Positions 6,554 to 61,390 of a stretch of DNA of 64,000 nucleotides are shown in pieces (within the stretch, counting starts at the first letter, position 1; every line of letters starts with the position of its first letter). The position numbers and the translations under genes were made by a program. Source of the stretch: Octopus vulgaris (lineage: Eukaryota); assembly GCA_951406725.2 (NCBI GenBank), contig OX597818.1, forward strand, positions 137,206,001 through 137,270,000, in the 5' to 3' direction. The notes below the pieces were generated by a model that did not search any database, was not told the DNA's origin, and saw only the letters and a list, made by a program, of their open reading frames with translations.

Positions 6554-7124
6554 CTATTTCTTTACTACCCACAAGGGGCTAAACACAGAGGGGACAAACA
6601 AGGACAGACAAATGGGTTAAGTCGATTATATCAACCCCAGTGCGTAACTGGTACTTAATTAATCGACCCCGAAAGGATGAAAGGCAAAGTCGACCTCGGC
6701 GGAATTTGAACTCAGTACGTAGCGGCAGACGAAATACCTATTTCTTTACTACCCACAAGGGGCTAAACACAGAAGGGACAAACGGATTAAGTCGATTACA
6801 TCGACCCCAGTGCGTAACTGCTACTTAATTTATCGACCCCGAAAGGATGAAAGGCAAAGTCGACCTCGGCGGAATTTGAACTCAGAACGTAGCGGCAGAC
6901 GAAATACCTATTTCTTTACTACCCACAAGGGGCTAAACACAGAAGGGACAAACGGATTAAGTCGATTACATCGACCCCAGTGCGTAACTGCTACTTAATT
7001 TATCGACCCCGAAAGGATGAAAGGCAAAGTCGACCTCGGCGGAATTTGAACTCAGAACGTAGCGGCAGACGAAATACTGCTAAGCATTTCGTCCGGCGTG
7101 CTAACGTCTCTGCCAGCTCGCCGC
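6554..7124 (-). mobile_element. SINE family C trimeric array with a 16-bp TSD
   Basis: One head plus three body-tail units; TSD ctctgttatcagtaat at 6538-6553 and 7125-7140. Confidence 0.93.
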
Positions 7125-7175
7125 CTCTGTTATCAGTAATTGCTCGACCGTTTGTATGAGGGTATGTGTGTAGTA

Positions 7176-8680: not shown

Positions 8681-10271
8681 TGCATATAAAAGGCAGCAAA
8701 GTACAAAATAGCCTTCATAAGCATAATGCGTCTTGTCATGAAAGACAAGAGAGACAACTCTAACACTGGCTAAAATTTAAAAACTAAGATCAACATATTG
8801 TTTGGAGATGATCAGATCTTTGGTAAATGTGGTTTAAAATATGTTACCCTCTTATTAGACAGCCTCACAACTCATTGTATTACTGGTACTCATGGAAATA
8901 ACGATGATAGTATTCTATATTAATGGACACCGAATGGATTAAAGCACACTTGTCCAGAGTGTGGTTTGAACTCAGGAGCCATGTATGCATGCATGTATGT
9001 ATATATGTATATATGTTTGTATGTATGTATGTATTATGTATGTATGTATGTATGTATGTATGTATGTGTGTATGAATGTATTTATGTAAGTTTGTATGTA
9101 TGCATGCATGCATGTATGTATATATGTATATATGTTTGTATGTATTATGTATTATGTATGTATGTATGTATGTATGTATGTATGTATGTATTATGTATGT
9201 ATGCATGTATGTATGTATGTATGTATGTATGTATGTGTGTATGAATGTATTTATGTAAGTTTGTATGTATGCATGCATGTATGTATATATGTATGTATGT
9301 ATATGTGTGTGTGTATGTATCTGTCCGTCTGTCTGTCTTTTGTCGATCCGTCCGTCTGTCTGTCGTTCTTCTATCTATCAAGATACTAACTCATGTATTT
9401 TACGCTGATCAGTTCATTAGTTGATACCCGGCAATTTATGGACTGTAAAATGTTTTAATTGTTTTATGCCAATGCAAATTGCTTAAAACTTGTATGATTT
9501 ATTATGTTCTTTTTGTTCGATGCACGGAAGATATTTAATCGAGCATGGCGTAGCTATTATAAATGGCATCACGATACGATCGAAACAATTGTAATAGCAG
9601 TGTATGTGGCCGTGATTTAGTCCAGATAGTTCGGACACCAATCGACAATTTCTCCACGTCCAGCTCAGCTAGCCAATATCTCATACAATTTCCTCAATTT
9701 CGTTTTCTGTTTTATTACTTAATTCTAACCTCCGAAAGCATAATTAACCAAAGACGAATCGAACCATGATAAAAAAAAAAAGAAAAAGGAAAAAAAAAAA
9801 AAAAAGAAAAGACAGGAGGAATTTAAAAAAAAAATGAGGAAAAAGAAGAAGAAAAAAAAAGGAAAAGTAGAAAACGTTTACGTCAGCAAATAATATACGA
9901 ATGTTTCCGACATGTGAAATGTCCATTCTCTCATTTCGGAAATGACCGCTGGAAATTGTCACTTGGAACTCCTGCCTGACACAAAAACTACTTGGCGTTT
10001 GTCCTCTTCAGCGTCCACACAGCTCGCAAATAAAACTCGAAACCACATAATATAAACAGCCAATAAAAATTGCTCGAAAATGAGATTGGTGAAAGGTCAA
10101 CGCTATAACTGCAATTCCCTGTAAGTGAATATTTCGTAATTCGGTTTGTGGCACGAAATCCGGGTCTTTTCTTATTCCCTTCATTATATGGTTTCTGTGT
10201 GGACTTCAGCGTAACTGTCTGAATGTCTGTGCTTTATGCATGCTTGTATTACACACATCGTCATTACGTAT

Positions 10272-10306
<35 letters not shown>

Positions 10307-10474
10307 GTAGTTGCTTACTAGAGGTTTTCATTTATTCTATCGATGATGTACACACCCATATAACCATGCTTAACTAAGCATGTATGTATCCATATATATA
10401 TCTATATACGTATGTGTATGTGCGTGTGTGTATGATTACATACACACACACATATGTATCTCTATCTATCTAAA

Positions 10475-10540
<66 letters not shown>

Positions 10541-10583
10541 CACACACATTTAATATATATTTAATATATGTGTTTCTATATAC

Positions 10584-10615
<32 letters not shown>

Positions 10616-10764
10616 ACATACAATCATATACATAGATATATATATCCATAGGTATGTATTTATGCGTGTGTGTGTATGTATATATATATTTATATACACA
10701 CGCATATATACTTATATATAAAAGCGCGTACGCACACGCACACACATAGACACACACACTCGCT

Positions 10765-10796
<32 letters not shown>

Positions 10797-11260
10797 TTAA
10801 CGCGGTCGTTTACCGAAAAGTTCTACTTGATATGATACACATGTTTGCAGCCGACTATTTTCATGTCATGTCAGGCGGTTCCATCTGACGAAATTAACTT
10901 GTTTCCTGTAGGCTTTGGTACTACTATTATTTTGTACCTGTTGGCTACCACAAATGTTATAATCATTTAATCTTGTAATAATTATTTAATCTTGCATTTA
11001 ATAATTATTTAATCTTGCATTTAATAATTATTTAATCGTGTAATAGTTTCAGTCAATGGATAGTTGCCGTGCTTTTGCTACAGATCTTGTGTATGTCGAT
11101 CGCAGTGAATTCGGTACTTATTTCAATGTAGTGGTTCTTTTCTCGATTTGTATTAATCGCATGTGGTGGCTTTGCAACCACCGTTGCGCGCCGAGGAAAT
11201 AAACGAACACAAACACACATACATACACAAAAGTGTTTTGAAATTTTATTTGAACTTATA

Positions 11261-12240
11261 GGCATAGACGCTGCTGTGTGGCCAAGAAGGTCACATTGCA
11301 ACCTCGTCGTTTCGGGTTCAGTCCCACTGAGCGACACCTTGGGTAGATGTCTTCTACTAGAGTCCCGGGTCGACCAAAGCCTTGTGAATGAATTTGGTTG
11401 GCAGAAACTGTGTAGAAGCACTAAGGCGGCGAAGCTGACAAGAACGTTAGCATACCGGGCGAAATGCGTAGCTGTATTTCGTCTGCCGTTACGTTCTGAG
11501 TTCAAATCCCGCCGAGGTCGACTTTACCTTTCATCCTTTCGGGGTCGATTAAATAAGTACCAGTTACGCACTGGGATCAATATAATCGACTTAATCCGTT
11601 TGTCTGTCCTTGTTTGGCCCCTCTATGTTTAGCCCCTTGTGGGTAATAAAGAAATAGGTATTTCGTCTACTGCTACGTTCCGAGTTCAAATTCCGCCGAG
11701 GTCGACTTTGCCTTTCATCCTTTCGGGGTCGATTAAATAAGTACCAGGTAGGCACTGGGGTCGATGTAATCGACTTAAACCGTTTGTCTGTCCTTGTTTT
11801 TCCTCTCTGTGTTTAGCTCCTTGTGGGTAGTAAAGAAATAGGTATTTCGTCTACTGCTACGTTCTTAGTTCAAATGTCGCCGAGGTCGACTTTGCCTTTC
11901 ATCCTTTTGGGGTCGATTAAATAAGTACCAGTTATGCACTGGGGTCGATGTTTGTCTGTCCTTGTTTGTCCCCTCTGTGTGTAGCCCCTTGTGGGCAGTA
12001 AATAAATAAAAGACTGTGTGGAAGCACGTCTTATATGCACAAGTGTGTGTTTGTGTTTGTAGTTTACCCTCGCTTGCTAAGAAGTGTTCATTTCTTTATA
12101 TCCCTGTAGCTTAGTTATTTGGCAAAAGAATTAGATAGAATAAGTACCAGTCTTTAAAATAAATTTGTTCGTCTCAAATCCTTCAGGGCGATGTCCAAGC
12201 ATGGGTGAAGTCCAACGAATGAAACAGACAAAAGATAAGG
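11261..12240 (+). mobile_element. SINE family B copy interrupted by a SINE C array
   Basis: Head at 11261-11421 and tail at 12028-12240 separated by the insertion. Confidence 0.8.
11422..12012 (+). mobile_element. SINE family C trimeric array with a 15-bp TSD
   Basis: TSD actgtgt(a/g)gaagcac at 11407-11421 and 12013-12027; internal junctions aaagaaatag|gtatttcgtc. Confidence 0.92.
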
Positions 12241-12345
12241 TAAAAATTGCAACTAAGCAACTTGTTTAACTGCATAAATTCGGTGGTGAGATGCAAAAAG
12301 AGTATAACCTGCGAAGGTGAACTCTTTTTGACCGCGAAACAGAGT

Positions 12346-12736
12346 GGGGGGAAGCACTCCGTCGGTTACGACGACGAGGTTTCCGGTTGATCCGAATCAA
12401 CGGAACAACCTGCTCGTGAAATTAACGTGTAAGTGGCTGAGCACTCCACAGACACGTGTACCCTTAACGCTGTTCTCGGGGATATTCAGCGTGACACAGA
12501 GAGTGACAAGGCCGGCCCTTTGAAATACAAGGTACAACAGAAACAGGAAGTAAGAGTGAGAGAAAGTTGTGGTGAAAGAGTACAGCAGGGATCACCACCA
12601 TCCCCTGCCGGAGCCTCGTGGAGCTTTTAGGTGTTTTCGCTCAATAAACACTCACAACGCCCGGTCTGGGAATCGAAACCGCGGTCCTATGACCGCGAGT
12701 CCGCTGCCCTAACCACTGGGCCATTGCGCCTCCACT
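12346..12736 (-). mobile_element. SINE family A, full length
   Basis: tRNA-like head (A box tggcccagtggtt, B box ggtttcgattccc); TSD gaaacagagt at 12336-12345 and 12740-12749. Confidence 0.93.
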
Positions 12737-13070
12737 CGTGAAACAGAGTATTACTTGTAAGATTTGAATAAAATTAAGAATAATTTATATATTCTACATT
12801 TAAAATATATTAAACTTTTTACCCCCATTAATGTGCCATCCTTTTGATCCTTTGATCAGGATTATCACCCATACTCGGACGTACACAACACGCGTAATCT
12901 TTCTCTTTCTCTCATACGCATACGTACTGTATACAGGCACATACACACACGCGCGCGTGCACACATACCCACTCATACCCATACGTATGTGTTTGAGTAT
13001 TTATACGCTTAGGTTAGTTATTGTAGTCTGGGGTATAACAAACTTCTGATATGTAGGTATTAGGGGTTGC

Positions 13071-13461
13071 GTGGAGGCGCAATGGCCCAGTGGTTAGGGC
13101 AGCGGTCTCGCGGTCATAGGATCGCGGTTTCGATTCCCAGACCGGGCGTTGTGAGTGTTTATTGCGCGAAAACACCTAAAAAGCTCCACGAGGCTCCGGC
13201 AGGGGATGGTGGTGATCCCTGCTGTACTCTTTCACCACAACTTTCTCTCACTCTTACTTCCTGTTTCTGTTGTACCTGTATTTCAAAGGGCCGGCCTTGT
13301 CACTCTCTGTGTCACACTGAATATCCCCGAGAACTACGTTAAGGGTGCACGTGTCTGTGGAGTGCTCAGCCACTTACACGTTAATTTCACGAGCAGGCTG
13401 TTCCGTTGATTCGAATCAACCGGAACCCTCATCGTCGTAACCGACGGAGTGCTTCTATTCC
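13071..13461 (+). mobile_element. SINE family A, full length
   Basis: TSD attaggggttgc at 13059-13070 and 13462-13473. Confidence 0.94.
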
Positions 13462-14019
13462 ATTAGGGGTTGCACTACACTTGGTCGGATAATATATGTT
13501 TGGTTAAGTTAATGTAATTGAAAATATTATCAGACCCTTTATTTTTATTTAGATCAATGGAGTCTTCGCCCTTATTTAAGCAACAGGGTTGCTAACTCTG
13601 ACTCGATCCGTGAAGTAGTCCGCCGGGTATTGCTTGTATAAATAAGAAAGCTCAGCAGTAATGAGATAATTTGAGTTCAATTTCGCCAAGGTCAACTTTG
13701 CCTTTCATCCTTTCGGGGTCGATAAATTAAGTACCAGTGAAACACCGGGGTCGATTTAATCCATTTGTACCCTCCTCCAAAATTCCAGGCCTTGTGCCAA
13801 TAGTAGAAAGGATTAACATGATTATTAATGGCTTGAAAGGACACCGTATTTCGTTATGCAATCATACTATGCTACAAACTATATTAAACGCTTTGTTAGT
13901 CAATACTGTGTTTTACTGTGCTAGCAGTGTCATAAAGGTTATCCCTACAGATATATATAGTGATGATGAAGAAGCAAGAACACCTGAAATATGGCATGAA
14001 AAAAAACGTCGCCTTTTTC

Positions 14020-14345
14020 AAGTTTAGCCAGGCTCATAGACCCGGTTTCCCGGTTTCTGTGGCGTATGTGTTCCCCCACACCTAGCTGGACGGGACGCCA
14101 GTCCATCGCAGCGTTACTCAAGAAACAGGAAAGAGAGAGTGAGAGAAAGTTGTGGCGAAAGAGTACAACAGGGGTCACCCCCTCCCCTGCCGGAGACTCG
14201 TGGAGGCAAGGCGTGATGGAGCGAAGACACCTAAAATTTAGGTGTTTTCGCTCAATAAACACACACAACACCCGGTCTGGGAATCGAAACCGCGATTCTC
14301 TGTCCGCGAGTCCGCTGCCCTAACCACTGGGCCATTGCGCCTCCG
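14020..14345 (-). mobile_element. SINE with family A head and a different 3' half
   Basis: Head and body match family A; the tail (ggactggcgtcccgtccagct...gaaaccgggtctatgagcc) differs. Confidence 0.8.
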
Positions 14346-14714
14346 AAATATGGTATATACACCCATTAACCACTCTTCCATCTTCGATTGCATCGTTGTT
14401 TACATTAGACGCACTCGAATACGAAACGTCGTGACAAGTCTGTGCTGGTAAAAAGCTTATCTCTTTAGAATATCTGCAGAGATAATCCTAACATGTAATG
14501 AGATTATACTAGGTGTATAGTATAACATACATTGATATTACGTGATTTTCATTCAGTGGGATTCTAATTCTGGTAAGTGTAATACTTGTTTAGGGGTTTC
14601 TAGTTTATAGGGGTTTTGTTGCACATGATACTGTTATGTTGGTGCTTTTGTTGTTGTTGTTAGCCCCACAACAACCCTGGTTGGTCAGACATATGAATAA
14701 AACTATTCAAAATG

Positions 14715-14898
14715 GTTGCATGGTAAAAAAATTTGCTCGCCAACCACATGGTTCCTGGTTCGTCTTTTCTGCGTGGTACCTGGGACAGATATCTACTACA
14801 GTCGCGGGCCGATCGAAACCTTTTGTGTGGATTTTGTAGACAGACCCCGTCGTATCTGCATAATATGTGTGCCTATGTGTGTGTGTATGCGTGCATAT

Positions 14899-14937
<39 letters not shown>

Positions 14938-15143
14938 TTTGCGTCTGTGTTTGTTTCCCCAACCACTTCACAACCGGTGTTGTCTAAGTCCCCGTAACTT
15001 AGAGGTTCGGCAAAAGAGATCGACAGGATATGTACCAGACTTAAAGAATGAATATTGGGGTCAATTCGTTCGGCTAATATTCTTCAAGGCAGTGCCCCAG
15101 CATGGCCGCAATCCAATAACTTAGACAAGTAAAAGATAAAAGA
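14715..15143 (+). mobile_element. SINE family B, diverged
   Basis: Colinear with 4452-4869. Confidence 0.8.
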
Positions 15144-15174
15144 TCATGCTATACATTTAGATCTATATGTTGTT

Positions 15175-15490
15175 ACTCTTTCACTCTTTTCAGTTATTTG
15201 ACTGTGGCCATGCTGGAGCACCGTATTTAGTCGAGCAAATCGACCCCAGTACATATTTTTTGTAAGCCTAGTATTTGTTTTATCGGACACTTTTGCCGAA
15301 CCGTTAAGTTACGTGGACGTAAACACACCAGCAAGGGACAAACACAGACACACAAATACACACACACACACACACACATATATACGACGGGCTTCTTTCC
15401 GTTTCCGCCTACCAAATCCACTCACAAGGCTTTGGCTGGCCAGAGGCTATAGTAGAAGTGTCACGCAGTGGGACTGAACCCGGAACCATG
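15175..15490 (-). mobile_element. SINE family B, tail-to-tail with the previous copy
   Basis: Reverse-complement match with internal deletions. Confidence 0.85.
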
Positions 15491-15550
15491 TTATTCCTAC
15501 GCCTTGGAATAAATATTGAGAATATATATTTTAAGCGTTTATTTTAAAAT

Positions 15551-16178
15551 CGGTGATTCTCAACCATTTTTTGCTTATGGCCCCTTTTAGCCCCTGTTTT
15601 ATTCGGGTTTACCCTCATAACCATTTGATGTTTAGAATATTCTATTATACTTTTATAGTTTAACTAGCAGTATCGCCCGGCGTTGCTCGGGTTTGTAAGG
15701 GAAATAACTATGTAAGCATTTTTAGAGAGTTATAGCCAAAAAATAGCAAAAAATGCATTAAAAATGGAAAAAAATGATGGTAATTTTTTTAAAAAATCGT
15801 TGACTCATCGTAGACATTTTTAGAGAGTTACTTCCCTTCTTTTAATAGCGAAAAAATGCATTAAAATGGAAAAAAATGATGGTAAATTTTTTTAAATCGT
15901 AGACTCATCGTAGACGCGCGCTAATACCCAGAAGGGCTCGATATGAATCACGACTATAAGATACCCGGTTTTGGTTAAACTGAACCGCAAAATGTGGGAG
16001 TAGTTAGGAATCTAAATCGTAGGAGACAGACACACAACTTGACTTTTATATATATAGATATTGTCAAGAAGCGTGTAAAAAATTGTTAGAATATTTTGTG
16101 TACTGTAGAAGTGTAACCAATTTATTGCTCGTAAATTTTAGCAACAAGAGTCATATACATCCCCGTTAAGAACCCCTG
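15551..16178. mobile_element. Putative hAT/Charlie-type MITE interrupted by a Helitron
   Basis: Imperfect termini cggtgattctcaac / gttaagaacccctg; 8-bp flanks tttaaaat / cttaaaac. Confidence 0.5.
15664..16058 (-). mobile_element. Non-autonomous Helitron
   Basis: On the minus strand it starts TC(tatatatataaaa) and ends with hairpin cccgagcaacgccggg followed by CTAG; inserted between A and T; internal tandem duplication. Confidence 0.8.
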
Positions 16179-16441
16179 CTTAAAACCAATACGTGTGTAA
16201 TTTGAGGGAGGTTTGGTTGGTGTTTCTAGCAAGTTGTCGTGAGCATGTAGCAGCTCACGCAGTGACTCCTACCCATAACATGAATACGTACGCATACATG
16301 CGATGCTTATGATTGTAGACGGGCTTATACACAATCGTCTCTTTGTGCATTAACACATAAACACACACCACACACAAAGGTTTGACCTTCACAACTATAC
16401 AGACATTCACATATACATACATACTTATGAACACCTAAACT

Positions 16442-16477
<36 letters not shown>

Positions 16478-16998
16478 CACACACAAACACAGCTGTCCAT
16501 GTTTCTGCACACTGCCCACTCGTTATCTCAAGTCCTGGGAATGAAAGACGAGATGGCTAAAAGTCCATCGAGCCTCTTGCACCGTTACTGTTGACTTAAT
16601 CATTATAAGGCAATTTCTTTGTCTGATATTACGGTTGGGGCATTTCCTCTTTGGTGATGGACAGAGCGTGAGCGAGCGGCTGCGTTTATTTGTGAACCTA
16701 CGTGCGTGTCCGTTTGGGATACTAAATGTATGTGTGTAAGTGTGGTGGCCCTGGAGGTGGTAGTGGTCGTGATGGTGGTGACGGTGGCGGTGGTGCTGTG
16801 GTGGTGATGTGTGTACGTGTGTGTGTGTGTGTACGCCGTGGGCATTTGCCTGTATTGCATGCGTCTGAGATGGTGTGGAGTGGACAATGTCCGTTCCTGT
16901 TTTTCTATTGGAAGCGAGTGAAGCTAAAATAAATACTGACATGCATGCACGCATATATACACACGCGTTGTACATATGTATGAGCGTACACACACACA

Positions 16999-17049
<51 letters not shown>

Positions 17050-17241
17050 ACACGCACACACATACATACACATTTACATATATACGTATGCATATATGTA
17101 TATGCAAACAAGTATATGCTTATATGTGTGTGTTTGAGTGCGTTTAGGCGCATAAACACACACACACACATACACAAGCCCACGTATATACGTATGTATG
17201 CCTATGTATACGCATGTGCGTGCGTATGTTTTTTTTACGCA

Positions 17242-17341: not shown

Positions 17342-18931
17342 TGCATATAAAAGGCAGCAAAGTACAAAATAGCCTTCATAAGCATAATACTTCTTGTTAT
17401 GAAAGACAAGAGAGACAACTCTAACATTGACTAAAAATTTAAAAACTAAGATCAACATATTGTTTGGAGATGATCAGATCTTTGGTAAATGTGGTTTAAA
17501 ATATGTTACCCTCTTATTAGACAGCCTCACAACTCATTGTATTACTGGTACTCATGGAAATAACGATGATAGTATTCTATATTAATGGACACCGAATGGA
17601 TTAAAGCACACTTGTCCAGAGTGTGGTTTGAACTCAGGAGCCATGTATGCATGCATGTATGTATATATGTATATATGTTTGTATGTATGTATGTATTATG
17701 TATGTATGTATGTATGTATGTATGTATGTGTGTATGAATGTATTTATGTAAGTTTGTATGTATGCATGCATGCATGTATGTATATATGTATATATGTTTG
17801 TATGTATTATGTATTATGTATGTATGTATGTATGTATGTATGTATGTATGTATTATGTATGTATGCATGTATGTATGTATGTATGTATGTATGTATGTGT
17901 GTATGAATGTATTTATGTAAGTTTGTATGTATGCATGCATGTATGTATATATGTATGTATGTATATGTGTGTGTGTATGTATCTGTCCGTCTGTCTGTCT
18001 TTTGTCGATCCGTCCGTCTGTCTGTCGTTCTTCTATCTATCAAGATACTAACTCATGTATTTTACGCTGATCAGTTCATTAGTTGATACCCGGCAATTTA
18101 TGGACTGTAAAATGTTTTAATTGTTTTATGCCAATGCAAATTGCTTAAAACTTGTATGATTTATTATGTTCTTTTTGTTCGATGCACGGAAGATATTTAA
18201 TCGAGCATGGCGTAGCTATTATAAATGGCATCACGATACGATCGAAACAATTGTAATAGCAGTGTATGTGGCCGTGATTTAGTCCAGATAGTTCGGACAC
18301 CAATCGACAATTTCTCCACGTCCAGCTCAGCTAGCCAATATCTCATACAATTTCCTCAATTTCGTTTTCTGTTTTATTACTTAATTCTAACCTCCGAAAG
18401 CATAATTAACCAAAGACGAATCGAACCATGATAAAAAAAAAAGAAAAAGGAAAAAAAAAAAAAAAGAAAAGACAGGAGGAATTTAAAAAAAAAATGAGGA
18501 AAAAGAAGAAGAAAAAAAAAGGAAAAGTAGAAAACGTTTACGTCAGCAAATAATATACGAATGTTTCCGACATGTGAAATGTCCATTCTCTCATTTCGGA
18601 AATGACCGCTGGAAATTGTCACTTGGAACTCCTGCCTGACACAAAAACTACTTGGCGTTTGTCCTCTTCAGCGTCCACACAGCTCGCAAATAAAACTCGA
18701 AACCACATAATATAAACAGCCAATAAAAATTGCTCGAAAATGAGATTGGTGAAAGGTCAACGCTATAACTGCAATTCCCTGTAAGTGAATATTTCGTAAT
18801 TCGGTTTGTGGCACGAAATCCGGGTCTTTTCTTATTCCCTTCATTATATGGTTTCTGTGTGGACTTCAGCGTAACTGTCTGAATGTCTGTGCTTTATGCA
18901 TGCTTGTATTACACACATCGTCAATACGTAT

Positions 18932-18970
<39 letters not shown>

Positions 18971-19128
18971 GTAGTTGCTTACTACAGATTTTCATTTATT
19001 CTATCGATGATGTACACACCCATATAACCATGCTTAACTAAGCATGTATGTATCCATATATATATCTATATACGTATGTGTATGTGCGTGTGTGTATGAT
19101 TACATACACACACACATATGTATCTCTA

Positions 19129-19198
<70 letters not shown>

Positions 19199-19244
19199 CT
19201 ACACACACGTTTAATATATATTTAATATATGTATTTCTATATAC

Positions 19245-19276
<32 letters not shown>

Positions 19277-19425
19277 ACATACAATCATATACATAGATAT
19301 ATATATCCATAGGTATGTATTTATGCGTGTGTGTGTATGTATATATATATTTATATACACACGCATATATACTTATATATAAAAGCGCGTACGCACACGC
19401 ACACACATAGACACACACACTCGCT

Positions 19426-19459
<34 letters not shown>

Positions 19460-22400
19460 TTAACGCGGTCGTTTACCGAAAAGTTCTACTTGATATGATA
19501 CACATGTTTGCAGCCGACTATTTTCATGTCATGTCAGGCGGTTCCATCTGACGAAATTAACTTGTTTCCTGTAGGCTTTGGTACTACTATTATTTTGTAC
19601 CTGTTGGCTACCACAAATGTTATAATCATTTAATCTTGTAATAATTATTTAATCTTGCATTTAATAATTATTTAATCTTGCATTTAATAATTATTTAATC
19701 GTGTAATAGTTTCAGTCAATGGATAGTTGCCGTGCTTTTGCTACAGATCTTGTGTATGTCGATCGCAGTGAATTCGGTACTTATTTCAATGTAGTGGTTC
19801 TTTTCTCGATTTGTATTAATCGCATGTGGTGGCTTTGCAACCACCGTTGCGCGCCGAGGAAATAAACGAACACAAACACACATACATACACAAAAGTGTT
19901 TTGAAATTTTATTTGAACTTATAGGCATAGACGCTGCTGTGTGGCCAAGAAGGTCACATTGCAACCTCGTCGTTTCGGGTTCAGTCCCACTGAGCGACAC
20001 CTTGGGTAGATGTCTTCTACTAGAGTCCCGGGTCGACCAAAGCCTTGTGAATGAATTTGGTTGGCAGAAACTGTGTAGAAGCACTAAGGCGGCGAAGCTG
20101 ACAAGAACGTTAGCATACCGGGCGAAATGCGTAGCTGTATTTCGTCTGCCGTTACGTTCTGAGTTCAAATCCCGCCGAGGTCGACTTTACCTTTCATCCT
20201 TTCGGGGTCGATTAAATAAGTACCAGTTACGCACTGGGATCAATATAATCGACTTAATCCGTTTGTCTGTCCTTGTTTGGCCCCTCTATGTTTAGCCCCT
20301 TGTGGGTAATAAAGAAATAGGTATTTCGTCTACTGCTACGTTCCGAGTTCAAATTCCGCCGAGGTCGACTTTGCCTTTCATCCTTTCGGGGTCGATTAAA
20401 TAAGTACCAGGTAGGCACTGGGGTCGATGTAATCGACTTAAACCGTTTGTCTGTCCTTGTTTTTCCTCTCTGTGTTTAGCTCCTTGTGGGTAGTAAAGAA
20501 ATAGGTATTTCGTCTACTGCTACGTTCTTAGTTCAAATGTCGCCGAGGTCGACTTTGCCTTTCATCCTTTTGGGGTCGATTAAATAAGTACCAGTTATGC
20601 ACTGGGGTCGATGTTTGTCTGTCCTTGTTTGTCCCCTCTGTGTGTAGCCCCTTGTGGGCAGTAAATAAATAAAAGACTGTGTGGAAGCACGTCTTATATG
20701 CACAAGTGTGTGTTTGTGTTTGTAGTTTACCCTCGCTTGCTAAGAAGTGTTCATTTCTTTATATCCCTGTAGCTTAGTTATTTGGCAAAAGAATTAGATA
20801 GAATAAGTACCAGTCTTTAAAATAAATTTGTTCGTCTCAAATCCTTCAGGGCGATGTCCAAGCATGGGTGAAGTCCAACGAATGAAACAGACAAAAGATA
20901 AGGTAAAAATTGCAACTAAGCAACTTGTTTAACTGCATAAATTCGGTGGTGAGATGCAAAAAGAGTATAACCTGCGAAGGTGAACTCTTTTTGACCGCGA
21001 AACAGAGTGGGGGGAAGCACTCCGTCGGTTACGACGACGAGGTTTCCGGTTGATCCGAATCAACGGAACAACCTGCTCGTGAAATTAACGTGTAAGTGGC
21101 TGAGCACTCCACAGACACGTGTACCCTTAACGCTGTTCTCGGGGATATTCAGCGTGACACAGAGAGTGACAAGGCCGGCCCTTTGAAATACAAGGTACAA
21201 CAGAAACAGGAAGTAAGAGTGAGAGAAAGTTGTGGTGAAAGAGTACAGCAGGGATCACCACCATCCCCTGCCGGAGCCTCGTGGAGCTTTTAGGTGTTTT
21301 CGCTCAATAAACACTCACAACGCCCGGTCTGGGAATCGAAACCGCGGTCCTATGACCGCGAGTCCGCTGCCCTAACCACTGGGCCATTGCGCCTCCACTC
21401 GTGAAACAGAGTATTACTTGTAAGATTTGAATAAAATTAAGAATAATTTATATATTCTACATTTAAAATATATTAAACTTTTTACCCCCATTAATGTGCC
21501 ATCCTTTTGATCCTTTGATCAGGATTATCACCCATACTCGGACGTACACAACACGCGTAATCTTTCTCTTTCTCTCATACGCATACGTACTGTATACAGG
21601 CACATACACACACGCGCGCGTGCACACATACCCACTCATACCCATACGTATGTGTTTGAGTATTTATACGCTTAGGTTAGTTATTGTAGTCTGGGGTATA
21701 ACAAACTTCTGATATGTAGGTATTAGGGGTTGCGTGGAGGCGCAATGGCCCAGTGGTTAGGGCAGCGGTCTCGCGGTCATAGGATCGCGGTTTCGATTCC
21801 CAGACCGGGCGTTGTGAGTGTTTATTGCGCGAAAACACCTAAAAAGCTCCACGAGGCTCCGGCAGGGGATGGTGGTGATCCCTGCTGTACTCTTTCACCA
21901 CAACTTTCTCTCACTCTTACTTCCTGTTTCTGTTGTACCTGTATTTCAAAGGGCCGGCCTTGTCACTCTCTGTGTCACACTGAATATCCCCGAGAACTAC
22001 GTTAAGGGTGCACGTGTCTGTGGAGTGCTCAGCCACTTACACGTTAATTTCACGAGCAGGCTGTTCCGTTGATTCGAATCAACCGGAACCCTCATCGTCG
22101 TAACCGACGGAGTGCTTCTATTCCATTAGGGGTTGCACTACACTTGGTCGGATAATATATGTTTGGTTAAGTTAATGTAATTGAAAATATTATCAGACCC
22201 TTTATTTTTATTTAGATCAATGGAGTCTTCGCCCTTATTTAAGCAACAGGGTTGCTAACTCTGACTCGATCCGTGAAGTAGTCCGCCGGGTATTGCTTGT
22301 ATAAATAAGAAAGCTCAGCAGTAATGAGATAATTTGAGTTCAATTTCGCCAAGGTCAACTTTGCCTTTCATCCTTTCGGGGTCGATAAATTAAGTACCAG

Positions 22401-23561
22401 TGAAACACCGGGGTCGATTTAATCCATTTGTACCCTCCTCCAAAATTCCAGGCCTTGTGCCAATAGTAGAAAGGATTAACATGATTATTAATGGCTTGAA
22501 AGGACACCGTATTTCGTTATGCAATCATACTATGCTACAAACTATATTAAACGCTTTGTTAGTCAATACTGTGTTTTACTGTGCTAGCAGTGTCATAAAG
22601 GTTATCCCTACAGATATATATAGTGATGATGAAGAAGCAAGAACACCTGAAATATGGCATGAAAAAAAACGTCGCCTTTTTCAAGTTTAGCCAGGCTCAT
22701 AGACCCGGTTTCCCGGTTTCTGTGGCGTATGTGTTCCCCCACACCTAGCTGGACGGGACGCCAGTCCATCGCAGCGTTACTCAAGAAACAGGAAAGAGAG
22801 AGTGAGAGAAAGTTGTGGCGAAAGAGTACAACAGGGGTCACCCCCTCCCCTGCCGGAGACTCGTGGAGGCAAGGCGTGATGGAGCGAAGACACCTAAAAT
22901 TTAGGTGTTTTCGCTCAATAAACACACACAACACCCGGTCTGGGAATCGAAACCGCGATTCTCTGTCCGCGAGTCCGCTGCCCTAACCACTGGGCCATTG
23001 CGCCTCCGAAATATGGTATATACACCCATTAACCACTCTTCCATCTTCGATTGCATCGTTGTTTACATTAGACGCACTCGAATACGAAACGTCGTGACAA
23101 GTCTGTGCTGGTAAAAAGCTTATCTCTTTAGAATATCTGCAGAGATAATCCTAACATGTAATGAGATTATACTAGGTGTATAGTATAACATACATTGATA
23201 TTACGTGATTTTCATTCAGTGGGATTCTAATTCTGGTAAGTGTAATACTTGTTTAGGGGTTTCTAGTTTATAGGGGTTTTGTTGCACATGATACTGTTAT
23301 GTTGGTGCTTTTGTTGTTGTTGTTAGCCCCACAACAACCCTGGTTGGTCAGACATATGAATAAAACTATTCAAAATGGTTGCATGGTAAAAAAATTTGCT
23401 CGCCAACCACATGGTTCCTGGTTCGTCTTTTCTGCGTGGTACCTGGGACAGATATCTACTACAGTCGCGGGCCGATCGAAACCTTTTGTGTGGATTTTGT
23501 AGACAGACCCCGTCGTATCTGCATAATATGTGTGCCTATGTGTGTGTGTATGCGTGCATAT

Positions 23562-23600
<39 letters not shown>

Positions 23601-25104
23601 TTTGCGTCTGTGTTTGTTTCCCCAACCACTTCACAACCGGTGTTGTCTAAGTCCCCGTAACTTAGAGGTTCGGCAAAAGAGATCGACAGGATATGTACCA
23701 GACTTAAAGAATGAATATTGGGGTCAATTCGTTCGGCTAATATTCTTCAAGGCAGTGCCCCAGCATGGCCGCAATCCAATAACTTAGACAAGTAAAAGAT
23801 AAAAGATCATGCTATACATTTAGATCTATATGTTGTTACTCTTTCACTCTTTTCAGTTATTTGACTGTGGCCATGCTGGAGCACCGTATTTAGTCGAGCA
23901 AATCGACCCCAGTACATATTTTTTGTAAGCCTAGTATTTGTTTTATCGGACACTTTTGCCGAACCGTTAAGTTACGTGGACGTAAACACACCAGCAAGGG
24001 ACAAACACAGACACACAAATACACACACACACACACACACATATATACGACGGGCTTCTTTCCGTTTCCGCCTACCAAATCCACTCACAAGGCTTTGGCT
24101 GGCCAGAGGCTATAGTAGAAGTGTCACGCAGTGGGACTGAACCCGGAACCATGTTATTCCTACGCCTTGGAATAAATATTGAGAATATATATTTTAAGCG
24201 TTTATTTTAAAATCGGTGATTCTCAACCATTTTTTGCTTATGGCCCCTTTTAGCCCCTGTTTTATTCGGGTTTACCCTCATAACCATTTGATGTTTAGAA
24301 TATTCTATTATACTTTTATAGTTTAACTAGCAGTATCGCCCGGCGTTGCTCGGGTTTGTAAGGGAAATAACTATGTAAGCATTTTTAGAGAGTTATAGCC
24401 AAAAAATAGCAAAAAATGCATTAAAAATGGAAAAAAATGATGGTAATTTTTTTAAAAAATCGTTGACTCATCGTAGACATTTTTAGAGAGTTACTTCCCT
24501 TCTTTTAATAGCGAAAAAATGCATTAAAATGGAAAAAAATGATGGTAAATTTTTTTTAATCGTAGACTCATCGTAGACGCGCGCTAATACCCAGAAGGGC
24601 TCGATATGAATCACGACTATAAGATACCCGGTTTTGGTTAAACTGAACCGCAAAATGTGGGAGTAGTTAGGAATCTAAATCGTAGGAGACAGACACACAA
24701 CTTGACTTTTATATATATAGATATTGTCAAGAAGCGTGTAAAAAATTGTTAGAATATTTTGTGTACTGTAGAAGTGTAACCAATTTATTGCTCGTAAATT
24801 TTAGCAACAAGAGTCATATACATCCCCGTTAAGAACCCCTGCTTAAAACCAATACGTGTGTAATTTGAGGGAGGTTTGGTTGGTGTTTCTAGCAAGTTGT
24901 CGTGAGCATGTAGCAGCTCACGCAGTGACTCCTACCCATAACATGAATACGTACGCATACATGCGATGCTTATGATTGTAGACGGGCTTATACACAATCG
25001 TCTCTTTGTGCATTAACACATAAACACACACCACACACAAAGGTTTGACCTTCACAACTATACAGACATTCACATATACATACATACTTATGAACACCTA
25101 AACT

Positions 25105-25140
<36 letters not shown>

Positions 25141-25661
25141 CACACACAAACACAGCTGTCCATGTTTCTGCACACTGCCCACTCGTTATCTCAAGTCCTG
25201 GGAATGAAAGACGAGATGGCTAAAAGTCCATCGAGCCTCTTGCACCGTTACTGTTGACTTAATCATTATAAGGCAATTTCTTTGTCTGATATTACGGTTG
25301 GGGCATTTCCTCTTTGGTGATGGACAGAGCGTGAGCGAGCGGCTGCGTTTATTTGTGAACCTACGTGCGTGTCCGTTTGGGATACTAAATGTATGTGTGT
25401 AAGTGTGGTGGCCCTGGAGGTGGTAGTGGTCGTGATGGTGGTGACGGTGGCGGTGGTGCTGTGGTGGTGATGTGTGTACGTGTGTGTGTGTGTGTACGCC
25501 GTGGGCATTTGCCTGTATTGCATGCGTCTGAGATGGTGTGGAGTGGACAATGTCCGTTCCTGTTTTTCTATTGGAAGCGAGTGAAGCTAAAATAAATACT
25601 GACATGCATGCACGCATATATACACACGCGTTGTACATATGTATGAGCGTACACACACACA

Positions 25662-25719
<58 letters not shown>

Positions 25720-25900
25720 CATACATACACATTTACATATATACGTATGCATATATGTATATGCAAACAAGTATATGCTTATATGTGTGTGTTTGAGTGC
25801 GTTTAGGCGCATAAACACACACACACACATACACAAGCCCACGTATATACGTATGTATGCCTATGTATACGCATGTGCGTGCGTATGTTTTTTTTACGCA
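17342..25900 (+). repeat. Copy 2 of the 8.56-kb duplication (SINE C array ~20085-20675, SINE A ~21009-21399 and ~21734-22124, Helitron 24327-24721)
   Basis: Begins at the first base after the gap; differs from copy 1 by a few substitutions and microsatellite lengths. Confidence 0.97.
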
Positions 25901-49789: not shown

Positions 49790-49796
49790 CCGTAAA

Positions 49797-50026
49797 GGCG
49801 GCGAGCTGGCAGAAACGTTAGCGCGCCGAGCGAAATGCTTAGCGGTATTTCGTCTGCCGTTACGTTCTGAGTTCAAATTCCGCCGAGGTCGACTTTGCCT
49901 TTCATCCTTTCGGGGTCGATTAAATAAGTACAGTTACGCACTGAGGTCGATATGATCGACTTAATCCGTTTGTCTGTCCTTGTTCGTCCTCTCTGTGTTT
50001 AGCCCCTTGTGGGTAATAAAGAAATA
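49797..50026 (+). mobile_element. SINE family C monomer (reference copy) with a 12-bp TSD
   Basis: tRNA-like head with B box gagttcaaattcc; central gcctttcatcctttcggggtcga resembling a shared SINE central domain; TSD ggttaccgtaaa at 49785-49796 and 50027-50038. Confidence 0.94.
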
Positions 50027-50399
50027 GGTTACCGTAAATATACACCGAACATTATCTCACACTGAGTGCTGACCTCAATCAGCGCGATCACCGTTGCCGC
50101 GCGCAGGCAACCGATTGAATCACCCCCGTATAAACTGGTTAAAGACGTTGATATAAATATTCGTTGAACCATTGTCGGGCGCCAATTGCTGATTTCAACT
50201 GAGATGATTACCGTTAATGCAACCCAGCTGCTTGATACCCCCCCCCCCCCACAAAAAAAAAAAAAAAACCGTTGCCATAGGATTAAACAAGGACACCTTT
50301 TTACTTCTGAAAGAAAATTCGTCCAGCAAGGAGGCACTGAATTTTATGACGAAACTCGGCCATTTCTTCTCATCTTTGAGTTTCCAAATCTCCAACTAG

Positions 50400-53347: not shown

Positions 53348-54479
53348 ATCACCGTCAAAATCACGATCACTGTCACCACCATCACCGCCACTACCAAGTT
53401 AGACATTCTCCTCAGCCACCAGCATCACCACCATCGCGGAAGCAAACTAACGAAGAAATCGCCTTGAAAATGGACAGTCGCAGAGTATAATGCAGTCTTA
53501 GGTACTCATTATCAAACAAAAAGAAGAGATGGTCATGGTTAGAACCTCTTCAGTAAGCTCTGGCCTAGAGCTAAGCAACAACATTGACAACTAACCATTA
53601 GGAAACAAAAATAAGAAAACACCTTCACCCGCTCTCGTGCCCTAGATATAGCAACCAAACCTCGCTCAATTCGACACTCACTCGTCTAAAAACCCAAAGG
53701 ACGTTGTAGATAATACAGTCGAAGATACCCAATAACAGAATGGTCACTGTTGGAACGTCTTTGGTTATATGCATTCCTAAAGAAGGCTACCCTGAAGCTA
53801 AACAGAAATGACAACCAAAACAATGTTTTATATAGAGTAAATTGTGAGGGTAAAATATGAAAATGTTGGAGTCATATCATATCTCAATTTAAACTCAGCA
53901 ACATTTACAACCAAACCAAATGGGAGGGAGGCTCCTCGCGGTTACTGACCTGCTAGAAATAACTGCCAAATTTTCTCAATATAAACTTAAAAAACCTTAC
54001 GTGAAATTTAGTCCCTGATATACGGAAATACGTGATTGTTGCGGTTGGAGCCATTTCGCCATATCTGTTTTCGGTCCGGCCCGAACTAAGGTTAAACAAC
54101 AAATGTATGTTTGTATAATTGTTGTGAAATACACTGTACTTTACTGGCTCTATTACACTTCTTACCTCCATTCCCATCAGTCTAGCAGTGCTCCATATGC
54201 GGTAGAGGCTACCGAGCACGCATGGGACTGATCGGCTATAGCCGGGCACTCTGTGACCCATCTTCTCCGACGTGATGACCGTGGTCATCGTCGACAATGA
54301 CGGACGAACATTATTATAATACACCTTACTACAATACACAGTATTGCACTGTACTATACTACTGAATACTACGAACATGGTAGTCCTGACGATAACGTTA
54401 TACTGCGTTCACATAAAGACATGTTTGTAGGGAAGGATTGTAGATTATTAGACAAGAATACGGCTGGCACGTGTATTTA

Positions 54480-55204
54480 TTTCTGCTCTAGGCACTGATT
54501 CCGAAAGGTTGGAAGGCAAAGTCAATCTCAGCAGAATTTGAACTTAGAACATAAAGACAGACGAAATACTGTTAAGCATTTCGCCCGGCGTGCTAACGTT
54601 TCTTATTTGTTTATTGCTCACAAGGGGCTAAACATAGAGGGGGCAAACAAGGACAGACAAACGGATTAAGTCGATTACATCGACCCCAGTGCGTAACTGG
54701 TACTTATTTAATCGACCCCGAAAGCATGAAAGGCAAAGTCGACCTCGGTGGAATTTGAACTCAGGACATAACGGCAGACGAAATACCTATTTCTTTACTA
54801 TCCACAAGGGGCTAAACACAGAGAGGACAAACAAGGACAGACAAACGGATTAAGTCGATAATATCGACCCCAGTGTGTAACTGGTACTTAATTAATCGAC
54901 CCCGAAAGGATGAAAAGCAAAGTCGACCTCGACGGAATTTGAACTCAGAACGTAGCAGCAGACGAAATACCTATTTCTTTATTACCCACAAGGGGCTAAA
55001 CACAGAGAGGACAAACAAGGGCAGACAAACGGATTAAGTCGATAATATCGACCCCAGTGTCTTACTGGTACTTAATTTATCGACCCAGAAAGGATGAAAA
55101 GCAAAGTCGACCTCGACGGAATTTGAACTCAGAACGTAGCAGCAGACGAAATACTGCTAAGCATTTCGCCCGGGGTGCTAACGTTTCTGCCAGCTCGCCG
55201 CCTT
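54480..55204 (-). mobile_element. SINE family C array: three young units plus an older target copy
   Basis: Head at ~55203; two aaatag|gtatttcgtc junctions; last tail joined to gaaacgttagcacg of a diverged copy. Confidence 0.9.
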
Positions 55205-57385: not shown

Positions 57386-57906
57386 GTTATTAATTCATAC
57401 TTTGCGAGTTTTGTTGAAACTTCCATATTCTTACACTTCATTTATTTAAGCGCTTTTTCTCCATGTACTATAGGCCACCACCATATTTTCTCCCATGTTC
57501 TCGACGCTAGGCTGTCTTTTATGCTCCTCTTCATTTGGATCCCTACCTTTTCACGTTTGTCCAAGTAACCTACCTTATATATTTCCCTGAAGGTAGGTCA
57601 CCCTCTCATAAGTTTTGTTGATTTTCAGTTTTTGAGCTGTCATCGATGTTCTGTAACTTTGCTTATTTTTTATATAGGGGTGTTGGCCTTATGCAGACCC
57701 ATTTTTCCTCTTGGAAGAAAAGATAAATATTAGGGAAATCGACGTTGCCATGCACAGGTGCTCGGTGTACGCATACGTTAGATGTCGAAGCGATCGCAAA
57801 GCAACTTGAAATGAACTCTGTTCCTCAAGAACACATCATACCGCTCAGTCCGAGAACTGAAACCACGAGCGCAAGATCATAAGTTCTACACCCTAATCAC
57901 TAATCG

Positions 57907-58180
57907 CGTCGGCTGCGGGGTCATTCCGAAAAGCTCTACCTGCGACGATTTCATCTCAATCGAAGGAGAGGAGCTTTCTCCGTCCGGGTTGCGGATCCGT
58001 GGAACAAGCTGCCAGACGAGATGGTGAAGATGCCGACGACCGCTTTGTTCAAAGCCTCCCTGGACCTCAAGTGGCCTGAACTCTTTACATGAACACCACC
58101 CTGTACTTAACTCCATGTCTCCCTACATGGCCTTGCTATTTGCTTTTGAGCCAAATTAACTAACTAACTAACTACCTAAC
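57907..58180 (+). mobile_element. CR1-clade LINE 3' end with (TAAC)n tail
   Basis: LRGHSEKLYLRRFHLNRRRGAFSVRVADPWNKLP...FKASLD motif; tail taactaactaactaac. Confidence 0.85.
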
Positions 58181-58261
58181 TTGAACACCTAATTTTTAAA
58201 AGAACTTTCATACCCGGAATACTAACGATTCTGCAACTCGCCGCCTGCTCTGTTGCTGAAT

Positions 58262-58664
58262 TGGTTTAAAATTTTGGCACAAGACCAGTACTTTCAAGTA
58301 AGAGTCTAAGTCGATTACATCGATCCCAGCGTTCAAGTGGTACTTATTTTATCGACCCCGAAAAGTTGAAAAGAAAATTCGACCTCGAAAGAATTTGAAC
58401 TCAAAACTTAAAGATGGATCAAATACCAATTTCTTTACTACCCACAAAGGGCTAAACACAGAGGGGACAGACAAACACAAGGACAGACAAACGGATTAAG
58501 TCGATTATATCGATCCCAGTGCGTAACTGGTACTTATTTTATCGACCCCGAAAAGTTGAAAGGAAAATTCTACCTCGAAAGAATTTGAACTCAAAACTTA
58601 AAGATGGATCAAATACCGTTAAGCGTTTTTCAGGTGTGCTAATGATTCTGCCAGCTCGTCGCCT
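58262..58664 (-). mobile_element. SINE family C chimera: young tail between two copies of a diverged body
   Basis: Private variants (aaaagttgaa, cctcgaaagaa, aaacttaaagatggatcaaatacc) present on both sides of the young tail. Confidence 0.85.
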
Positions 58665-59759
58665 TAGAGTAACACTATATTAGTAACAGTTGATGATGAA
58701 AACCAAATCGTACGCACATTTTTATCAGAATTTGTACCGTTTCTTTTCTCATAAATAAACAATATTAAAAACGTCTTGCTTTTGCAGACTTCGTTCAATA
58801 ATAATTTAGTATCACGTGACCGAGGAACACTCATGAACTTTCCTCGTGTCATTCTCGAGTCTGATGGAAGGAAATTAATTCCCCTCCCAAACAGAAACAG
58901 ACCCTGGAAACTTAGCCTAATTGCGTGTAACAATGTGAACCGTGCTACAGTTACCCCAAAACCAGATAATGCTGCTTAAGCTAGCAAAGTATTATGTGTA
59001 CGACACAAAAGCATGAACAGTTCCTCCGACCTGCCATCATAGATCTTCTCACTGCCAAGTTTCACTTACAAGATTTGGTCGACACCGCACTAATGTATAA
59101 GACAGTTGGTGAAGATGCTTCGTGGTGGGCTTGAACTAGAGTCCGCGTTGTCACGAGAGAACTTTTTCATCGCATAACCAAGTCTGTTTACTTGCTTCAC
59201 AACGGAATTGAACACGAGATCACGTAATTTCGAAGGGAACACCTTTCCCATACAACATTGCCAGTTGCCAGGCAGACCGCGTGTTAAGTAAATATATTTT
59301 GTAGGTTTAGCTAATTAATACGCTAACTCAAACATTAATACCTGAACATACACAAGAACGTTAACCTAGCAAAGTTACACTCGGATTATTGATATAAAAC
59401 CTTGCATTTGTTGATATCTTTGAAGCGATACAGATTCGCAGCAGGCTTATTTGCGTCAAAGATCTCTTTCTTTGTAGTTCTGTTGGCGTCTGATAAATAG
59501 TGTTGATTGTACTTGATTGACTCCATTTAGATCAAAACCAGACTTTAAATTCAATCATTTGGCGCAAATGTCAATGCAAACACAATAAGCATTCGTGAAT
59601 CTGTTCAAATACAAATATGCCGGCGGTTGGGGGTAAATGTTACGTTGTCCCAGATTTCACATATCAGTGAAAAAGCATATGTATGTGCATATTCGTATAA
59701 ATGTATACACATGTATACACACATACAATATGTATATAAATAATAATAATAATAATAAT

Positions 59760-60864: not shown

Positions 60865-60945
60865 ATGTGTGTGTGAATTTGCGAGTGTTGTATGTGTTTA
60901 CATTTTTGAAGAGACAATAACTTTATTAATATTATCAGTGGTATA

Positions 60946-61390
60946 AGGTGGCGAGCTGGTAGAAACGTTAGCACGCCGGGCGAAATGCGTAGCCATATTT
61001 TGTCTGCCGTTACGTTCTGAGTTCAAATTCCGCCGAGGTCGACTTTGCCTTTCATCCTTTCGGTGTTGATTAAATAAGTACCAGTTACGCACTGGGGTCG
61101 ATGCAATCGTCTTAATCCGTGTGTCTCCTTGTTTGTTCCCTCTGTGTTTAGCCCCTTGTGGGTAGTAAAGAAATAGGTATTTCGTCTGCCGTTACGTTCT
61201 GAATTCAAATTCTGCCGAGGTCGACTTTGCCTTTCATGCTTTCGGGGTCGATTAAATAAGTACCAGTTACGCACTGGGGTTGATGTAATCGACTTAATCC
61301 GTGTGTCTGTCCTTGTTTGTCCCCTCAGTGTGTAGCCCCTTGTGGGTAGTAAAGAAATAGGCATTCGTCTGTCTTTACATTCTGAGTTCT
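60946..61390 (+). mobile_element. SINE family C dimer plus an old body remnant
   Basis: Junctions aaagaaatag|gtatttcgtc and aaagaaatag|gcattcgtctgtctttac. Confidence 0.9.

What the first reader, a model, noticed from the sequence alone, without database searches (positions are those of the whole stretch)
58262..58664. Snapshot of a SINE inserting into its own family with a ~95-bp homology-driven target duplication
Seen, in sense (minus) orientation: old head, diverged body, near-consensus young tail, the same diverged body again with identical private mutations, then an old tail of a different type. Simple tandem duplication would not produce two different tails. Inference: a young SINE C RNA primed at the GGTATTT site of an old copy and the cDNA was resolved by annealing to the homologous body downstream, duplicating the target. 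This would be a homing or tail-replacement mode of SINE propagation.
Basis: partly seen in the sequence, partly recalled or inferred. Interest (0 to 1): 0.72.

Follow-up and report, generated by a model that had tools for sequence, protein, structure and literature searches.

The report
SINE inserted into an older relative
An old short jumping repeat here holds a young sister repeat's tail between two 90-base copies of its own body; the family likely pastes itself into one fixed spot in older copies tens of thousands of times, and this long duplication is a rare outcome that likely arose by base-pairing during insertion, though later DNA exchange could give the same result.

Summary
Observation confirmed. 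On the minus strand lie an old head, body 1, a young tail (T1), body 2 and an old tail of another type (T2). The bodies match at 88 of the first 90 bases, then body 1 turns young-type. This is neither plain tandem duplication nor a dispersed chimera. Self-insertion is real: 36,550 of 118,651 exact T1 ends run into GGTATTTC, and full-length copies sit at that site with ordinary short target duplications. The long duplication is the exception: 9 of 230 young-into-old junctions carry a target-derived tract starting near the site (null 0.9), only 4 behind an old head, and this tract is among the longest. Usually head and first body are young. Pairing of cDNA with the target during insertion (0.45) cannot be separated from later gene conversion or crossover (0.40), which other loci show. 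No empty allele was resolved. The scan found the self-targeting system before on other DNA of this genome; this locus adds the rare long-tract outcome. My paper searches found no description in octopus.

The parts
58618..58665 (-). Old SINE head, 5' part of the tRNA-like region with an A-box-like motif (box labels recalled)
   Evidence: 19% from family consensus; sequence
58528..58617 (-). Body 1, positions 1-90: target-type copy starting at GGTATTT; holds three T4 runs (58596, 58567, 58554), so likely not a transcribed source copy
   Evidence: 88 of 90 identical to body 2; T2-like or neutral score; T4 runs
58498..58527 (-). Body 1, positions 91-120: young T1-type sequence
   Evidence: Differs from body 2 at 91, 94-96, 98, 110; T1 score +7.9 and +5.3 bits
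58428..58497 (-). Young T1 tail; its last ~40 nt resemble the 3' end of zf-RVT-bearing LINEs
   Evidence: About 5% from consensus; tail match in 22 of 30 zf-RVT loci
58308..58427 (-). Body 2: the old target body, starting at GGTATTT
58262..58307 (-). Old T2-type tail
   Evidence: 24% from T2 consensus
58206..58246 (-). Separate truncated SINE head downstream, not part of the duplication
   Evidence: Read directly from sequence

Best explanation
An old T2-tailed SINE carries a young T1 segment between two 90-base copies of its own body; the young SINE likely inserted by target-primed reverse transcription at the family's GGTATTT hotspot, and its cDNA likely paired with the old copy's matching body, so that 90 bases of target were duplicated. 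Steps. (1) Shown: T1 ends join GGTATTTC family-wide, and full-length copies sit there with ordinary short target duplications. (2) Inferred: the enzyme comes from an L1/Tx1-type LINE, whose 3' end the T1 tail shares. (3) Inferred: T1 has no T4 terminator, so its RNA would read on into GGUAUUU and could pair with the nicked strand. (4) Inferred: the cDNA is homologous to the target on both sides of the nick. Pairing in the head upstream would replace the head (the common outcome); no pairing would leave an extra head (about 1 in 8); pairing in the body downstream would duplicate the body (2-4%, this locus).
For: Site use: 36,550 of 118,651 exact T1 ends are followed by GGTATTTC, about 2 expected by chance; 3,941 run into an old-type body start. 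Retrotransposition at the site: 71 exact nested heads. Of 29 distinct loci examined, 25 have the downstream junction, 22 a duplication of 9 bp or more, and 14 repeat a non-consensus base of the target on both sides. 5'-truncated inserts with ordinary duplications exist (L313; L470). Polarity: 9 tracts begin near the site against 2 internal ones among 230 pairs (shuffles 0.9 and 0.37). In 60 trimers the middle unit's sharing with the downstream unit falls along the unit (0.13, 0.07, 0.04, 0.03); of 10 middle units with two or more such shared bases, 4 do not match the upstream unit, 2 do, 4 are uninformative. In this locus, L235, L340 and L260 the tract follows an old or degraded head. Insertions outside SINEs start their duplication with GGT in 14 of 25 GGGT-type tails and 0 of 16 GGGC-type tails (counted; p=1.4e-4).
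Against: The outcome is rare (9 of 230, of which 4 behind an old head). DNA-level exchange does act on these arrays. L046 has an ordinary short duplication and an extra head yet shares a body tract. L303 and L320 have internal tracts. L086 and L186 are mosaics of both neighbours, and 16-22% of rare variants are shared evenly between first and middle units. Inserts that keep an extra head are slightly younger than headless ones (0.042 vs 0.053, p=0.017), as expected if heads are lost later. The two bodies differ at 2 of 90 sites where 4-6 would be expected from the T1 part's divergence (P=0.06-0.24, not significant). RNA-templated overwriting of the 3' duplication was not detected (4 vs 2). Recognised duplications at non-SINE sites are 12-22 bp (41 of 110 elements; the search covered only 12-23 bp). 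I found no LINE at this site myself.
Confidence: 0.45

Rival explanations
1. The young SINE inserted at GGTATTT in the usual way (young body, short or no duplication). Body 1 was later overwritten by DNA exchange: conversion or crossover with the empty allele entering through the head, or conversion from body 2.
For: Shared tracts occur in loci where they cannot be target duplications (L046 nested; L303 internal). Neighbour mosaics L086 and L186 and evenly shared variants in trimers. Nested inserts are younger. Only 2 differences in 90 bp, and a shared base at position 104 beyond the switch. Exchange with an empty allele also predicts an old head and a tract that starts at the site (inference).
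Against: Conversion from body 2 alone should give tracts at both ends of the body, but 9 start near the 5' end and only L303 approaches the 3' end. The bodies would have been about 15-19% apart, which suppresses homologous exchange (general knowledge). The asymmetry does not count against the empty-allele route.
Confidence: 0.4
3. The whole head-body-T1-body-T2 chimera is a dispersed subfamily, or a plain tandem duplication with later tail decay.
For: Whole-array transposition remains possible for other arrays: heads of mixed arrays track the first body (rho 0.40), not the last (rho 0.15). Whole-unit sharing occurs in 10 of 84 T1-T1 pairs.
Against: No other body carries more than 8 of the 17 shared bases. 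The best other genomic match is 84% identical (40 of 3,284 candidates scored). The two tails belong to different, non-alignable tail families. Body 1 holds three T4 runs.
Confidence: 0.04

Closest known systems
SINEU-3 and Tx1-Mar LINEs of crocodilians (PMC4494074; passages seen)
   Same: A SINE inserts at one site inside another repeat, with short target duplications and sequential tandem insertions; a Tx1-type LINE is the proposed carrier.
   Different: Their target is a Mariner element, not the SINE's own family; tandem copies are separated by a target duplication; no homology-based loss of the head or long duplication appears in the passages seen. Preference there is 90%, here about 31% of exact T1 ends.
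Chimeric L1 and templated insertions by cDNA annealing to nearby homologous DNA (Gilbert et al. 2005, not held; seen only as cited in passages of bioRxiv 10.1101/2024.08.27.596794)
   Same: Growing cDNA leaves the RNA and pairs with homologous genomic DNA, duplicating a segment; this is the mechanism proposed here.
   Different: There it is a sporadic by-product at dispersed sites; here the target site lies inside the homologous element, so homology flanks every such insertion.
TSD1-(SINE)n-TSD1 arrays of the clam Scapharca broughtonii (PMC11481361; section 15 read whole, other passages seen)
   Same: One full head followed by head-truncated units inside one target duplication.
   Different: Attributed to unequal recombination between target duplications; no self-target site, tail polarity or target-derived tracts in what I read.
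SINE-derived satellites of squamates (PMC10702118; passages seen)
   Same: Tandem repeats of SINE parts at many loci.
   Different: Long arrays ascribed to unequal recombination and homogenisation; here arrays are mostly 2-3 units of mixed subfamily.
Octopus OR1/OR2 tRNA-derived SINEs (Ohshima and Okada 1994, not held; OR2 named as a CORE SINE in a passage of PMC4758252)
   Same: A tRNA-like head with several tail types in what is probably an octopus; the likeness is recalled, not tested.
   Different: No sequence comparison was possible; self-insertion is not mentioned in the passages seen.

Membership tests
tRNA-derived SINE | Dispersed high-copy short non-coding element | tested here: met
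   118,651 exact T1 tail ends; 29 T1, 16 T3 and 12 T2 full monomers in 800 kb of random stretches
tRNA-derived SINE | Variable short target-site duplications | tested here: met
   12-22 bp duplications in 41 of 110 T1-ended elements
tRNA-derived SINE | tRNA-derived head with A and B boxes | tested here: inconclusive
   Box-like motifs and paired ends visible (box consensus recalled); no Rfam tRNA match at this locus; the fold is a long hairpin, not a cloverleaf
tRNA-derived SINE | 3' tail shared with a partner LINE | tested here: met
   T1 tail matches the 3' end in 22 of 30 zf-RVT loci
CORE-SINE / Octopus OR1-OR2 | CORE domain and identity to published OR consensus | not testable with these tools
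   No SINE library is held; the resemblance is recalled
Target-specific SINE of the SINEU/Tx1-Mar kind | Repeated insertion at one site in a repeat, with target duplications | tested here: met
Target-specific SINE of the SINEU/Tx1-Mar kind | A Tx1 LINE that uses the same site | tested here: inconclusive
   None of the 22 tail-sharing LINE ends is followed by the SINE site; the two hits were SINE fragments; earlier scan notes report such a LINE, not confirmed here
Homology-resolved (chimeric) non-LTR insertion | Target-derived tract starting at the nick, switch inside shared homology | tested here: met
   Positions 1-90 target-type, switch by position 91; 9 of 230 such tracts
Homology-resolved (chimeric) non-LTR insertion | Tract formed during insertion, shown by an empty site or a de novo event | tested here: inconclusive
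   No read or contig bridged the element in 7 runs laid
Plain tandem duplication / SINE satellite | Whole units, body and tail together, share variants | tested here: not met
   Different tails at this locus; family-wide 10 of 84 T1-T1 pairs

The most novel reading that the evidence does not exclude
A terminator-less SINE homes into its own family: read-through RNA pairs with a fixed site inside older copies, and the cDNA is resolved by homology on either side of the nick. Dead copies of other subfamilies are thereby given a new head or a new LINE-recognised tail, with the long duplication seen here as the downstream-pairing outcome. That would be a retrotransposition-driven route to SINE module swapping and to seeds of tandem repeats, at tens of thousands of loci.
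Probability: 0.35. Interest if true: 0.75.

Novelty: new variant of a known kind. Interest (0 to 1): 0.52.

Why it matters
SINE families are known to swap heads, bodies and tails, and to seed tandem repeats, but the steps are rarely seen. Here one genome holds at least 36,550 junctions made at one site inside the SINE's own family, with three outcomes (extra head kept, head replaced, body duplicated). That is a large natural record of how the 5' end of a non-LTR insertion is joined when homology is at hand. It makes testable whether cDNA pairing or later gene conversion drives SINE mosaicism. The locus itself is one rare outcome of that system, not a mechanism of its own.

Tried and rejected
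Empty allele: 7 public runs were laid. Contigs stop at 58336 and resume at 58636-58638, and raw reads gave 0 and 27 placements, mostly from other copies; nothing can be said about presence or absence of the insert. A genome-wide two-by-two count of first-body against second-body type was not obtained; samples were used instead (80 random 10-kb stretches, coordinates, and junction sets chosen for a diverged target start). The 230-pair set is therefore enriched for old targets, and the rate is an estimate. Search for a LINE at the site: no LINE junction in the loci held at that point; L300 was a single unrelated case; the LINE-tail pattern gave two SINE fragments; a 1,140-aa zf-RVT family uses a different target. 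RNA-templated overwriting of the 3' duplication: 4 vs 2, no signal. Rfam gave no relevant match. My first nested-head filter missed degraded heads and was replaced. Eight of 169 junctions without a full upstream unit and 23 with a T1-tailed target were dropped before the count of 138. Rejected: dispersed chimera and plain tandem duplication. Papers: searches returned no account of a self-targeting SINE in octopus; some searches returned little on mechanism. Ohshima and Okada 1994 was not read, and Gilbert et al. 2005 was not held. Passages of PMC13282606 mention SINE and L1-Tx1 families but no nesting; its supplements were not read and may bear on family names. PMC1920257 (passages) added nothing specific.

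Full report
What is there. The window comes from a 2.8-Gb, 227-contig animal genome, probably an octopus (inference from size and SINE likeness, recalled). On the minus strand the locus reads: head 58665-58618, body 1 58617-58498, tail T1 58497-58428, body 2 58427-58308, tail T2 58307-58262. Profiles built from random stretches and the window show one head and body with three tail families, T1, T2 and T3. T1 copies are young (body about 6% from consensus) and T2/T3 monomers older (about 19%). Here the head is 19% and the T2 tail 24% from consensus, the T1 tail about 5%.

The two bodies match at 88 of the first 90 bases and then differ at 91, 94-96, 98 and 110. They share 17 non-consensus bases; none of 1,186 other body rows has more than 8 of them. 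Both are T2-like or neutral to position 90; after it body 1 is T1-like and body 2 T2-like. The best other match in the genome is 84% identical (40 of 3,284 candidates scored), so this chimera is not a dispersed subfamily.

The site is a family-wide target. Of 118,651 exact T1 ends, 36,550 are followed by GGTATTTC, against about 2 by chance. In 800 kb of random stretches the tail upstream of 27 of 28 array junctions was T1. In 79 arrays from the random stretches, the window and the list (the last chosen for a T1 junction), terminal tails were T1 40, T3 26, T2 7, none 6. There are 71 exact cases of a new full head placed just after an older head's GGTATTT. Of 29 distinct ones examined, 22 have a duplication of 9 bp or more and 14 repeat a non-consensus base of the target on both sides. 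That is the signature of retrotransposition at this site. Outside SINEs, duplications were recognised in 41 of 110 elements (12-22 bp). They start with GGT in 14 of 25 GGGT-type tails and in 0 of 16 GGGC-type tails, which favour AGAA or TATA; a second site in the head starting AGAAAC has 2,777 exact junctions. The last ~40 nt of T1 match the 3' end in 22 of 30 zf-RVT LINE loci, so an L1/Tx1-type carrier is likely; I did not find one at the site. The T1 consensus has no T4 run, so read-through into the site is plausible, but RNA-templated overwriting was not detected.

The long duplication is the exception. Among 138 junctions into old targets with a diverged start, 13 keep an extra head, 33 follow another T1 unit, 80 follow a single head, 4 follow a head placed behind a T1 tail and 8 are unclear. 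Four of the 88 single-head or unclear cases carry a target-derived tract. Over all 230 T1-into-old pairs, 9 tracts start near the site and 2 are internal (shuffles 0.9 and 0.37). Tract ends range from 16 to at least 76. This locus has shared bases to 64 and identity to 90, so it is among the longest. Four tracts follow an old or degraded head (this locus, L235, L340, L260). In most mixed arrays the first body is young and the head is closer to young heads (0.113 vs 0.090 and 0.207) and tracks the first body (rho 0.40), not the last (0.15). The estimated share of old-type head bases is 9-29% by segment. The usual outcome is therefore head replacement, loss of an extra head, or transposition of a ready-made multimer, not body duplication.

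Mechanism. Preferred (0.45): the bottom strand is nicked at GGTATTT, cDNA is made through the T1 tail into the body, pairs with the target's top-strand body, and second-strand synthesis from about position 90 duplicates the target. The polarity of tracts, the old head in front of them, and the cDNA-annealing route reported for L1 fit this. Close rival (0.40): ordinary insertion followed by DNA exchange. L046 shares a body tract despite an ordinary short duplication; L303 and L320 have internal tracts; L086 and L186 are mosaics of both neighbours; 10 of 84 T1-T1 pairs share body and tail; inserts with an extra head are slightly younger (p=0.017). Exchange with an empty allele predicts the same polar tract and old head. 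The 2 differences in 90 bp against 4-6 expected lean towards the rival but are not significant. Reads and contigs of 7 runs did not bridge the element. Body 1 has three T4 runs, so this copy likely was not revived as a source.

Comparison and novelty. It works like SINEU-3 with Tx1-Mar (site-specific insertion into a repeat) combined with chimeric L1 formation. It looks like the clam one-head arrays and squamate SINE satellites, which are ascribed to recombination. It differs in that the target is the SINE's own family. Searches found no such account for octopus; the library lacks most subscription journals. The scan's earlier notes describe the self-targeting SINE and a Tx1 LINE at the same site on other DNA of this genome. 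I confirmed the SINE part and the shared tail, not the LINE's site. Verdict: real, a new variant of a known kind; the system is striking, while this locus is a rare outcome of uncertain timing. Interest 0.52.

Noticed in passing
window 57899-58178 (+): 3' fragment of a CR1-like LINE (C-terminal motif recalled) with a short tandem tail. Contigs of runs X19 and X20 join 57898 directly to 58179, so it is absent there: a young or polymorphic insertion.
   Followed up: partly
window about 8980-17130 and 17640-25790: An 8.66-kb tandem duplication; SINE arrays at 11421 and 20084 and the microsatellites repeat at this offset. A real segmental duplication or an assembly artefact.
   Followed up: no
L453-L468 (G000:C2:73.04-73.07 Mb and others): A zf-RVT LINE family, with ORFs near 1,140 aa in intact copies, is followed by the same target motif at all 15 3' ends found in 14 of 16 fetched loci, and stacks head to tail on C2 (my note's count of 11 of 12 was wrong). 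The target is not this SINE.
   Followed up: partly
L280-L291: Second self-insertion site in the SINE head (starting AGAAAC, about head position 16): 2,777 exact junctions; 10 of 12 loci viewed have GGGC-type or closely similar tails.
   Followed up: partly
window 49797-49886 (+): The young head folds into a long hairpin (z -2.97) whose 3' arm begins at the GGTATTT site; a hairpin or cruciform might help the nick. Untested.
   Followed up: no
L275/L276 (G000:C24:39989153-39989233): Two 60-bp units share one private deletion, the first with a young-type start and the second with the target's start: a likely unequal exchange.
   Followed up: partly
L148 7059 (+): A six-unit array alternates two unit types (ABABAB), so a dimer was amplified as a block.
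   Followed up: no
L221, L011: Back-to-back inverted SINE pieces joined near the body-tail border, resembling inversion during insertion.
   Followed up: no
window 6607-7126, 11421-12007, 49795-50029, 54400-55204, 60926-61389: Other T1 arrays and one monomer of the same family; the 54400 array ends at the second head site, followed by an old-type body.
   Followed up: yes
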